Part shown: piece by piece, positions 33,964 to 36,768 of the stretch
How the letters are laid out: every line of letters starts with the position of its first letter
Position numbering within the stretch: position 1 is the first letter of the stretch
Assembly: GCF_006345805.1 (NCBI RefSeq)
Contig: NW_021835463.1
Span: forward strand, 8,917 to 72,916
Source: Octopus sinensis
Lineage: Eukaryota
DNA: 64,000 nt
Direction: 5' to 3'
Notes under the pieces: generated by a model
Databases searched by the model: none
What the model was told of the DNA's origin: nothing
The model's input: only the letters and a program-made list of their open reading frames with translations
Made by a program: the position numbers and the translations under genes

Positions 33964-35530
33964 TGTTTCGACCAAAGATTGGTCCAGGACATGTCTAACT
34001 TAATAGCACCACCTGATAGGATTATTCGAATCCTGTTTAAGTCAAGTTTTGTTCAAGTAGTGAGTTCTTGTTGGGTGAGTTGTATCCAGTTTTGTTCAAG
34101 TAGTGAGTTCTTGTTGGGTGAGTTGTATCCAGTTTTGTTCAAGTAGCGAGTTCTTGTTGGGTGACTTGTATCCAATTATGGGTGGCTTATCTGGTATTCT
34201 TTGAAGGAATCTATCCAGACTCTGTTTAAAGTTGATGGGATCCTTTTCCTCTTTGATCTCTCTCGGGACAATGTTAATAGGGCAGGGCCTGTTGAGGAAA
34301 AGAAATTATGTTGCAGTGTACATGTATGTTGTGATCTTGAATTGGGCAGGGGACGTATAGCCCGTGGTCCAAGTCTTGGATGAACCTTGAAGCTAATGTT
34401 TAGGTCGTTTGGGCATAGTTGGCGGTATATTTTCCACATCGTACAAATGATGTACCGCTCACGCTGGAGGGAGTAAAGTTTCAAGGCTTTAAGGCAATCC
34501 CAATAATCGAGAGCAGCCATGCCTTCAATTCGTTTAGTGAGTGCCCTCTGGGGTGACTCAATTCTGGAGATGTTTAGTCTTGTTTGAGGAGACCACAGTG
34601 GGCAGCAGTATTCAAGGTGTGGCCGTACAAAGGAGGAAAAAAGTGGTATGATGACACCTTGTTCTCTGGACCGGAAAGTTCTTAAGATCCAGGAACTCAT
34701 CCTACGAGCTATATCGACCTTCTTGTTGATGTGTGCACTCCAACTGTGATGGTCATCAACAATTACACCCAGTTCTCTGATATTGTTAGAGTCTGTGAGC
34801 GGTTCCCCTGAAGGAAGAGAGTATGGCTGTTTTAGTGAGGAGTTTCTTCCAAAATGCATCAGCTCAAATTTTCCCTCGTTTAGTTGTATTTTGTTTCTGT
34901 TTGCCCATTGACTCACAGCATATAGATCAGACTGGAGTTGAGTTCGGTCTGCTTCTCATTGACGATTTACTGGAGCTTGGTGTCATCAGCAAATATTTTC
35001 ACTTTGCAGTAATGTACGACACTGGAAAGGTCGTTTATGTAGATTATGAAGAGTAGCGGACCCAAGACAGTCCCCTGGGGGTCACCGCTGGTGGTGACTT
35101 TTGCTGGGCTTGAGTGGACTCCATCAACTACAACATGTGTTGTATTCGCCAGGAAATACTTGATCCAGTGTAGAACTTCAATGTGGTGTAAGAGCTGTGT
35201 TAGACAGTCCCTGCCACAGCGAAAGCCATGCTGTTTTGCATTTAGGAGTTTGTGGGTCTCAGGCAGGAAGTCAGCCATCCTTGATCTTAACACTCTTTCA
35301 AACACTTTGATGATGTGGGAGGTGAGTGAGATTGGGCGATAGTTGAGTGCGAGGGATCTGTTTCCCTGTTTGAAAACCGGGATGACTGACTGGGATAGAA
35401 ACTGTTTTGGTATATACCTGCATGTAACGAATTTCTCCAGAGGTTGGTCAGTGGGACTGCAAGTTGGTGTTTACATTCCTTCAGGAGACTAACGGGGAAT
35501 CCTATCAGGGCCTAACAGAGTAGAGTAGTA
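33964..35530 (-). mobile_element. 5'-truncated CR1-group LINE (RT C-terminal half and 3' end), frameshifted, with an internal deletion
   Basis: NYRPISLTSHIIKVFERV, QHGFRCGRDCLTQLL, SGDPQGTVLGPLLFIIYINDL, KIFADDTKL and RPHLEYCCPLWSP motifs (ORFs 34967-35305 and 34176-34916). Confidence 0.88.
34045..34174. repeat. 3 x 43-bp tandem repeat at the LINE C-terminus
   Basis: AGTTTTGTTCAAGTAGTGAGTTCTTGTTGGGTGAGTTGTATCC starts at 34045, 34088 and 34131. Confidence 0.92.
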
Positions 35531-36707
35531 TTTGACCTCATTTATTGCTGCTACGATGTCAGTGGGAGTGAAGGTTGTCTGCAATTTTGTGTTGGGAGTC
35601 AACTTCGTTCGCTTCTCTTACGTCAATATCAGTGGGAACACTAAAGACAGCAGTATTGTTTTTGCAATATATATATATATAGAGAGAAACATGTATATAC
35701 ATATAGATATTTATATATATGTATATGTGTGTATGTTTCGGTGTCCCCAAAACCGCTTGACAACCAATGCCGGTGTTTTTTACACTCCATTAACTTATCC
35801 GTTCGGGAAAAGAAGACCAACAGAATAAATACTAGACTGACGTAGATAAAAGTCCTAGTGTCGATTTGCTCTAGAAAAGGCCGTGCTCTAGCAGTGGCAC
35901 AGTGAAATGACTAAACAAGGAAAAGAGTAAAAGTGTATGCGGTACATCTGAACATTATATTGTAGAGTTAATTAGCTTCCATAATACATTTTGATAATAG
36001 TCATGTATTTAAATGTAAGGGAGGTAACTTTTGAAGATTTTTAAAGTTATCCCCCTTTGTAGAGTTACCCCCATTGAACTTTACAATTTAATAATACATA
36101 ATAGTTATTTAATTAGATGTAAGGGAGGTGACTCTGAAAGATTTTTTAGTTATCTCCCTTTCTAGAGTTACTCCCCTTCTATATTATTATTAACTTATAA
36201 CGTGAAGGTAAGTAACTATACGAAGGAAGATAACTCTAAAATCTTCCCGAGTTCCCTTATATCTAATTAAATTACTTTTACTCTTATACTTGTTTCAGTC
36301 ATTTGACTGCGGCCATGCTGGAGCACCACCTTTTAGTACTTATTCTATCGGTCTCTTTTTGTCGAACCGCTAAGTGACGGGGACCTAAATACACCAGCAT
36401 CGGTTGTCAAGCGATGCTAGGGGGACAAACACACACACATACATATACATACGACAGGCTTCCTTCAGTTTCCGTCTACCAAATCCACTAACAAGGCATT
36501 GGTCGGCCCGGGGCTATAGCAGGAGACACTTGCCCAAGATGCCACGCAATTGGACTGAACCCGGAACTATGTGGTTGGTTAGCAAGCTACTTACCACTGC
36601 TGCGCCTATTATCTATTAAATTATATATTCTAGGGAAGTGACTCTAGAAAGGGAAATAGGTACAAGATTTTCCACAGTTACTTCCCTTACATGTAATTAC
36701 ATTACGA

Positions 36708-36768
36708 TTGGGGTTGGGTTGGGTTGGGTTAGGGTTAGTTTCAGGGTCGGGGTTAGGGTTGGGGTTAG
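36708..36768 (+). repeat. Interstitial degenerate telomeric tract (TTGGG/TTAGGG/TCAGGG)
   Basis: TTGGGGTTGGGTTGGGTTGGGTTAGGGTTAGTTTCAGGGTCGGGGTTAGGGTTGGGGTTAG; same strand and same variant units as the start of the terminal array. Confidence 0.85.

What the first reader, a model, noticed from the sequence alone, without database searches (positions are those of the whole stretch)
34945..36768. Fossil chromosome end: an internal copy of the terminal architecture 27 kb inside the real telomere
Seen: the order LINE RT, spacer, AAGGGAGGTAACT/AGTTATCTCCCTT units, degenerate TTGGG/TTAGGG tract occurs at 34945-36768 (with an extra SINE segment) and again at 61853-64000. Both telomeric tracts begin about 15-20 bp after an AGTTACT(T/C)CCCT motif and start with TTGGG-type variants. 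Inference: 36708-36768 is a former telomere base, later extended by satellites and re-copied subtelomere and re-capped at the equivalent motif. This would be an iterative end-extension system layered on telomerase.
Basis: partly seen in the sequence, partly recalled or inferred. Interest (0 to 1): 0.75.

Follow-up and report, generated by a model that had tools for sequence, protein, structure and literature searches.

The report
Buried old telomere in subtelomeric duplicon
A 61-base telomere-like stretch 27 kb inside the end of this sequence is real and is likely an old chromosome end that was buried once under satellite DNA and then copied to many other ends, a pattern known from humans, yeast and worms.

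Summary
The repeated order is real and not a mis-join. The internal tract is likely a telomere relic: the same junction occurs 24 times in the genome (control 0) and at one locus runs into telomere repeats up to the contig end. The local story fails. The same tract-satellite joint occurs at 18 fetched places, so burial happened once and spread by duplication. The terminal cassette is a separate paralogue (96% identical, keeps 120 bp that the inner copy lost). Its tract starts at a non-homologous site, and only 2 of 11 tract-start classes carry the motif. The end tract (235 bp) is not proven terminal. This is a new member of a known kind: subterminal duplicons bounded by internal telomere tracts. 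Found while following the family: at two other places a 1.1-kb non-telomeric unit repeats 14 times between 0.4-2.3 kb telomere tracts that share variant patterns. This resembles ALT templates (TALT), in a genome with a TERT-like exon. So recombination-based end extension likely operates here, but not through this motif.

The parts
26700..27760 (-). Retroelement-like fragment at the inner edge of the block shared by many family loci (Penelope-like by recall)
   Evidence: Present at 94-99% in C15, C16, C26, C11705, C24end, C12761 and others; GIY-YIG hit only E 0.078, below the cut-off
27761..33959 (+). Proximal mosaic of subtelomeric modules (SINE pieces, single hairpin units, TG-rich repeats)
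   Evidence: Self-BLAST and module maps
33960..35640 (-). Broken LINE fragment of cassette A; lacks a 120-bp piece that other family members keep
   Evidence: RVT_1 E 1.1e-12; stops in translation; maps
35641..36275 (+). TA repeat, spacer, forward hairpin units and a degenerate inverted unit
36276..36606 (+). SINE insertion specific to the 7 A-type copies
   Evidence: Absent from the unit arrays of C16, C8862 and C26; thousands of dispersed candidates
36607..36707 (+). Last, inverted hairpin unit ending in junction J1
   Evidence: 24 exact pattern hits, control 0
36708..36768 (+). 61-bp degenerate telomere tract (relic), G-rich strand towards the end
36769..38267 (+). 34-bp satellite, about 45 copies, joined to the tract through a shared AG
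   Evidence: same joint at 18 places
38294..43455 (+). Short 15-bp satellite, locally inverted AT-rich piece, further subtelomeric modules
43456..58340 (+). 15-bp G-skewed satellite, about 1000 copies
58345..61852 (+). Distal subtelomeric modules; the same satellite-to-module joint occurs in C9573, C8862, C6 and C6344
61853..63029 (-). Cassette B: LINE piece with the 120-bp segment, left part deleted at a TCGG microhomology, then spacer
63030..63765 (+). Expanded hairpin array with an inversion centred near 63523; junction J2 at its end
   Evidence: 63528-63729 is 87% identical to the reverse of 63323-63519
63766..64000 (+). 235-bp telomere tract running to the contig end; probably, not provably, the present telomere
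   Evidence: the C24 copy ends in a 305-bp tract at a gap

Best explanation
The 61-bp tract is likely the remnant of a real telomere that was once cut short, likely joined a single time to a 34-bp satellite, and then copied with its flanks to many chromosome ends as part of a subtelomeric duplicon. Shown: the junction (J1) is a family feature; the tract-satellite joint is shared; the outer cassette is a separately derived paralogue with its own junction; the whole nested block also exists on other contigs. Inferred order: (1) an ancestral end carried LINE fragment, spacer, hairpins and J1 next to the telomere; (2) the telomere eroded or broke to at least about 160 bp and was repaired by microhomology-mediated joining or break-induced copying onto satellite DNA; (3) a 15-bp satellite and another subtelomeric block with a second cassette were added further out; (4) that cassette suffered a deletion and a fold-back and was capped with new telomere repeats at a different site, presumably by telomerase; (5) terminal exchange spread the block to several ends while the relic shrank to 57-164 bp. 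No sequence-specific system is needed.
For: J1 has 24 exact hits, control 0. Of 25 J1 copies printed, 16 lead to the 34-bp satellite, 5 to a captured inverted piece, 2 back into a hairpin unit, 1 to the CTC unit, and 1 runs 185 bp to a contig end. A J1-like junction in C12761 leads to about 5 kb of mostly telomeric DNA up to the contig end. 18 tract-satellite joints share the same point; 17 of 18 carry a TCAGGG/TCGGGG variant by pattern and the 18th a related one. The joints show 2-4 bp microhomology, as in human short-telomere fusions (PMC2847243). A is closer to cassettes at other loci (97.0-97.1%) than to B (96.3%). The TASf module at 59380 is 2.4% from C8862 and 4.5% from the window's inner copy. 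C24 carries A and B without a gap and matches from window 17843 (10 mismatches in 8850); C21, C29 and C9573 share from 19676. Contigs from 4 studies and 3 organism labels cross the tract-satellite joint.
Against: In the tree B is sister to the A clade, though unstarred (85/86), and A-type copies are B's nearest neighbours (96.2-96.5% against 96.0% for the next). Two distal modules are also nearest to A-type inner copies. An old duplication within this end, before A's deletion, is therefore not excluded. No A-type copy with a long telomere at J1 was found. The run contigs reach only 25-28 letters into the satellite, under the tool's 31-letter bar, and raw reads did not cover the joint. Some copies may be alleles or redundant contigs, so 18 places is not 18 loci. 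In C6 and C6344 the block runs on into ordinary DNA, so not all copies sit at ends. The mechanism of each joint is inferred from sequence alone.
Confidence: 0.72

Rival explanations
1. One reading: this end was extended in place by a repeating, motif-guided system that re-copies the subtelomere and re-caps it at the equivalent AGTTACT(T/C)CCCT site.
For: Both tracts start 14-20 bp after a similar motif. B is weakly sister to the A clade. C10394 shows true small-scale nesting: three J1 copies with about 80-bp tracts in tandem, then a terminal tract. C26 and C11705 are nested too. Several tract starts fall in the hairpin array.
Against: The two sites are not homologous. 9 of 11 start classes lack the motif. 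23% of B's array lies within 30 bp behind such a motif anyway. B keeps 120 bp that A lost. The joints are inherited, not renewed. Loci were found through the array, which biases starts towards it.
Confidence: 0.1
2. The tract was never terminal: telomere repeats were put in at an internal break or arose by repeat slippage between the cassette and the satellite.
For: The tract is short and only 2 of its units are perfect TTAGGG. Some family copies lie in ordinary DNA.
Against: The same J1 leads to four different distal partners and once to a contig-terminal array. In the window the G-rich strand points to the end. Its TTGGGG/TCAGGG variants are those reported for proximal telomere regions (PMC2323237).
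Confidence: 0.1
3. The cassette with its tract is a mobile element that carries telomere repeats.
For: It holds a LINE fragment and inverted repeats and has at least 29 copies.
Against: The LINE is broken. Homology runs on for kilobases of mosaic modules with no fixed end. The exact hairpin pattern has 25 hits, most in fetched family loci. Target-site duplications were not searched for systematically.
Confidence: 0.04
4. Assembly mis-join of two different ends.
For: Repetitive region; no long read was available to me; raw short reads gave no cover.
Against: Seven contigs hold the A joint and flanks at 98-100%. C24 spans A to B without a gap. C9573 reaches the B-type deletion. Independent runs cross the joint.
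Confidence: 0.03

Closest known systems
Human subterminal duplicons with internal (TTAGGG)n-like tracts (Ambrosini 2007, PMC2323237; passages read)
   Same: Internal copies of telomere-adjacent sequence next to degenerate tracts at duplicon boundaries, pointing to the telomere, with TCAGGG/TTGGGG variants, 90-96% identity, and occasional head-to-head tracts.
   Different: Here large 34-, 15- and about 59-bp satellites lie distal to the relics, and the relic is shorter than most human islands (150-200 bp).
C. elegans CB4856 chromosome VR new subtelomere and TALT (Kim 2019, PMC6581047; Seo 2015, PMC4595603; passages read)
   Same: A short old telomere followed by extra DNA and a new telomere, in a telomerase-positive wild strain, inherited from one event. 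The C2/C11827 arrays match the TALT layout.
   Different: In the window the added DNA is satellite plus subtelomeric modules, not tandem TALT. The TALT-like arrays are at other loci and have 14 copies against 5.
Yeast Y' elements with interstitial telomeric sequences (PMC13177704; passages read)
   Same: Tandem subtelomeric blocks separated by 20-500 bp tracts and exchanged among ends.
   Different: No coding capacity and no uniform element here; the block is a mosaic.
Pyricularia telomere relics and tandem subtelomeric repeats bounded by interstitial telomeres (Rahnama 2021, PMC8381367; passages read)
   Same: Internalised former telomeres, and iterative re-copying by a compromised end (compare C10394).
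   Different: No telomere-targeting retrotransposon was found here.
Ape subterminal satellite caps with duplicated spacers (PMC12758386; search listing only)
   Same: Satellite arrays interleaved with duplicated blocks at many ends.
   Different: Unrelated sequences; not compared in detail.

Membership tests
Subterminal duplicon with internal telomere tract | Sequence occurs both next to a terminal array and at internal subtelomeric sites | tested here: met
   J1 at the contig-terminal tract of C10394, J1-like in C12761; internal in 24 of 25 printed copies. Contig ends stand in for chromosome ends.
Subterminal duplicon with internal telomere tract | Degenerate tract at a duplicon boundary, G-strand towards the end | tested here: met
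   Window, C24, C21, C26; the head-to-head copies are exceptions
Subterminal duplicon with internal telomere tract | Multi-copy, more than 90% identical, more than 1 kb | tested here: met
   29 cores of 1.0-1.4 kb, 91.7-100% identical to the window's two copies
Subterminal duplicon with internal telomere tract | Physical location at chromosome ends | tested here: inconclusive
   Many copies lie near scaffold ends, gaps or on unplaced contigs; C6, C6344 and C16 copies do not. Needs FISH or a complete assembly.
Motif-directed telomerase healing site | Independent tract starts share the motif | tested here: not met
   2 of 11 hand-picked start classes; the two window sites are not homologous
Telomere-targeting retrotransposon (MoTeR/TRAS type) | Intact or 5'-truncated element inserted within telomere repeats | tested here: not met
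   The LINE is broken and lies about 1 kb inside the tract, with no telomere repeats on its inner side
TALT-type ALT template (arrays at C2, C11827, C3688; outside the window) | Genomic block flanked by telomere repeats, in tandem within telomeric DNA | tested here: met
   14 copies each in C2 and C11827, separated by 0.4-2.3 kb tracts
TALT-type ALT template (arrays at C2, C11827, C3688; outside the window) | Copied to unrelated ends | tested here: met
   The arrays follow unique DNA in C2, the 15-bp satellite in C11827 and other DNA in C3688
TALT-type ALT template (arrays at C2, C11827, C3688; outside the window) | Internal donor flanked by same-direction telomere-like tracts | tested here: inconclusive
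   A longer form lies between opposed tracts at 6 loci; no single-copy donor for the whole unit was found among the 40 scored candidates
TALT-type ALT template (arrays at C2, C11827, C3688; outside the window) | Maintains ends without telomerase | not testable with these tools
   A TERT-like exon is present; activity unknown

The most novel reading that the evidence does not exclude
This animal (an octopus, by recalled SINE sequences) extends its chromosome ends in the germ line by recurring ALT-like recombination beside telomerase. Short telomeres capture satellites, subtelomeric blocks or a 1.1-kb template, and that template is amplified with its telomere tracts into 30-40 kb TALT-like arrays at several ends. 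The window's nested end would be one frozen round of this process.
Probability: 0.35. Interest if true: 0.75.

Novelty: new member of a known kind. Interest (0 to 1): 0.5.

Why it matters
The nested end itself is ordinary subtelomere biology, though my searches found no description of it for cephalopods. The family gives a datable record of repeated telomere loss and repair: one junction with four different distal partners. The TALT-like arrays matter more. Such arrays are known from telomerase mutants and from wild C. elegans isolates. If long reads confirm them as terminal in a wild mollusc with TERT, natural germ-line ALT becomes testable outside the model organisms.

Tried and rejected
Raw reads from three 2026 runs covered only the SINE, or nothing, so they gave no test of a short allele. 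A pattern from loose contig ends, which hinted that the outer half of the tract comes from another satellite-linked tract, had 0 matches in the genome; a composite origin of the tract stays unsupported. The Telomerase_RBD family search found nothing, but its control did not ring either. A second candidate TERT exon had no PDB match. A Pfam scan of one 31-aa frame of the EGF-like exon gave nothing, so that label is recalled. My first tract finder missed short degenerate tracts, including the window's own, so junction patterns were used instead. The first variant-sharing test split some repeats in two and inflated the counts; it was redone. The A-type copies dropped out of the LINE distance list for B through a coverage filter, so that list is not used to place B. 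Simple recent fold-back as the source of B's last units was rejected because the arms are only 87% alike.

Full report
Setting. The window is G000:C11934:8917-72916 and ends at the contig end. I take the animal to be an octopus from recalled SINE sequences; no call names it. Left of about 17 kb lie nucleoside-hydrolase exons and transposon debris. From about 27 kb on, the window is a mosaic of repeated modules and two satellites: 34 bp x 45 at 36767-38267 and 15 bp x 1000 at 43456-58340.

Observation. The two cassettes (A inner, B outer) align at 92% with gaps and 96.3% over 1019 gap-free columns. The LINE piece hits RVT_1. The inner tract is 61 bp and the outer 235 bp; GGGTTRGGGTT occurs 32 times against 0.22 expected. 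The tracts begin 20 and 14 bp behind look-alike motifs. But B's last 100 bp align to 36088-36189 of A. A's tract follows an inverted unit and B's a forward unit, so the sites are not homologous. In B's array 23% of positions lie within 30 bp behind such a motif.

Not a mis-join. Seven places hold 35950-36710 at 98-100% and all continue into the same tract and satellite. C24 runs from A to B without a gap, over 23.5 kb against 27.0 kb here, and ends in a 305-bp tract at a gap. Contigs of four public runs from four studies (organism labels A, A, D, E) cross the tract-satellite joint, one with no difference over 36709-36793. They reach only 25-28 letters into the satellite, short of the tool's 31-letter bar. 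Raw reads gave no cover.

A family, buried once. The junction before the tract (J1) has 24 exact hits and 0 for the control. Of 25 J1 copies printed from fetched loci, 16 lead to the 34-bp satellite, 5 to a captured inverted piece, 2 back into a hairpin unit, 1 to another unit (CTC), and 1 runs 185 bp to a contig end. A J1-like junction in C12761 leads to about 5 kb of mostly telomeric DNA at the contig end. All 18 tract-satellite joints (19 rows, one without a tract dropped) use the same point, with tracts of 57-164 bp; 17 of 18 share a TCAGGG/TCGGGG variant. I infer that J1 was a real telomere junction, buried at least four separate times, and that the satellite burial happened once. The joints carry 2-4 bp of microhomology, as reported for fusions of short human telomeres (PMC2847243, passages).

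B is not a re-copy of A. The 7 A-type cores form a clade (99/97) marked by a 120-bp deletion and a SINE insertion. B keeps the 120 bp and has its own deletion at a TCGG microhomology. A is closer to cassettes on C10227, C26 and C8730 (97.0-97.1%) than to B. Against my reading, B sits as sister to the A clade (85/86, unstarred), with 2 shared derived columns against 7 A-only and 24 B-only. The satellite-to-module joint at 58345 is shared with C9573, C8862, C6 and C6344. The distal modules are a mosaic: two are nearest C8862, C6 or C6344 (2.4%) and two are nearest A-type inner copies (2.4-4.1%). The block was then passed on whole: C24 matches from 17843, and C21, C29 and C9573 from 19676. C9079 is probably the allele.

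No guiding motif. Of 11 hand-defined classes of tract start, only the window's two have the motif within 30 bp. The others start in the 15-bp satellite, the spacer, another module or unique DNA. One of the nine (C12761) may be a J1 that lost the motif. Several starts fall in the hairpin array, which may be fragile, but the loci were found through that array.

What supports iteration. C10394 holds three J1-plus-80-bp-tract units in tandem before its terminal tract, and C26 holds the block twice. On C2 and C11827 a unit of about 1.1 kb repeats 14 times each with nearly fixed ends, separated by 0.4-2.3 kb tracts; C3688 has two copies. The tracts share variant-rich runs far beyond shuffles: 157 against a mean of 21 (maximum 44) and 176 against 23 (maximum 49). 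The control telomeres C12761 and C10460 gave 0 and 2. So the tracts were likely copied from DNA along with the unit. A longer form of the unit lies head-to-head against a J1 cassette at six loci, which ties it to this family. A TERT_C hit over the cut-off matches solved TERT chains (E 0.003); whether the gene is intact was not shown. The arrays rest on the assembly alone.

Comparison. Human subterminal duplicons show the same layout (PMC2323237, passages), as do yeast Y' arrays (PMC13177704, passages) and Pyricularia relics (PMC8381367, passages). Wild C. elegans CB4856 has a short old telomere, five TALT copies, a duplicated block and a new telomere (PMC6581047, PMC4595603, passages). For bioRxiv 2022.09.04.506531 and 2023.01.23.525193 I saw abstract and outline only, and for PMC12758386 the listing. 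Five searches listed no paper whose title or abstract start describes cephalopod subtelomeres or TALT in molluscs. I opened none of those hits, the library lacks most subscription journals, and no supplements were read.

Verdict. The feature is real, likely a telomere relic in a shared subtelomeric duplicon (0.72), and a new member of a known kind. The motif-guided local system is unlikely (0.10). Interest 0.5, carried largely by the TALT-like arrays, which deserve their own study.

Noticed in passing
G000:C2:206267505-206306435; G000:C11827:4900-36717; G000:C3688:2180-11000 (L155-L166): TALT-like arrays: a roughly 1.1-kb unit (G-rich CTC part plus about 845 bp with an EGF-like exon by recall and a SINE) repeated 14, 14 and 2 times between telomere tracts that share variant patterns.
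   Followed up: partly
G000:C10227:17731-19400; C8730:46582-48046; C15:67885239-67886816; C16:7382606-7385227; C8:74513823-74515448; C1735:9755-11192: Head-to-head telomere tracts with a captured piece of about 1.3 kb between them, like a fusion relic, duplicated to six loci; part of the piece also occurs without telomere repeats at C8:74094407, C11894 and C1327.
   Followed up: partly
G000:C10394:1-1400 (L102): Miniature nested end: three J1 units with about 80-bp tracts, each rejoined to a hairpin unit through TTAG, then a terminal tract.
   Followed up: yes
window 43456-58340: A common 15-bp satellite monomer (CATGTAATTCAGGG, 48 exact copies) nearly matches the subtelomere-telomere junction of C12761, so the satellite may have arisen from such a junction; untested.
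   Followed up: no
G000:C11705:33680-41928; C752 after 10290; C21:1-9600; C9986:19650-27959: A third, roughly 59-bp satellite caps several family ends, once directly behind a 320-bp telomere tract.
   Followed up: no
G000:C1:75755000-75775200; C7:51923400-51929700; C6:66527000-66532800: Telomere-like arrays of 6-20 kb ending at gaps, only about 45-70% perfect TTAGGG; the C1 array has strong higher-order repeats.
   Followed up: partly
G000:C28:8918299-8918481 (L187): TERT C-terminal exon candidate; gene not assembled.
   Followed up: partly
window 1904-2320, 4970-5293, 9152-9580: Nucleoside hydrolase exons (PF01156) with a duplicated last exon (4681-5405 ~ 8968-9692, 78%).
   Followed up: no
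window 38656-39764: AT-rich segment with a local inverted and direct duplication, missing from the C9986 and C21 copies.
   Followed up: no
G000:C19:37939835-37940300: A-type tract and satellite with the whole LINE cassette deleted up to J1.
   Followed up: partly
G000:C10394:5482-9931: 34-bp satellite in alternating inverted blocks of about 200-400 bp.
   Followed up: no
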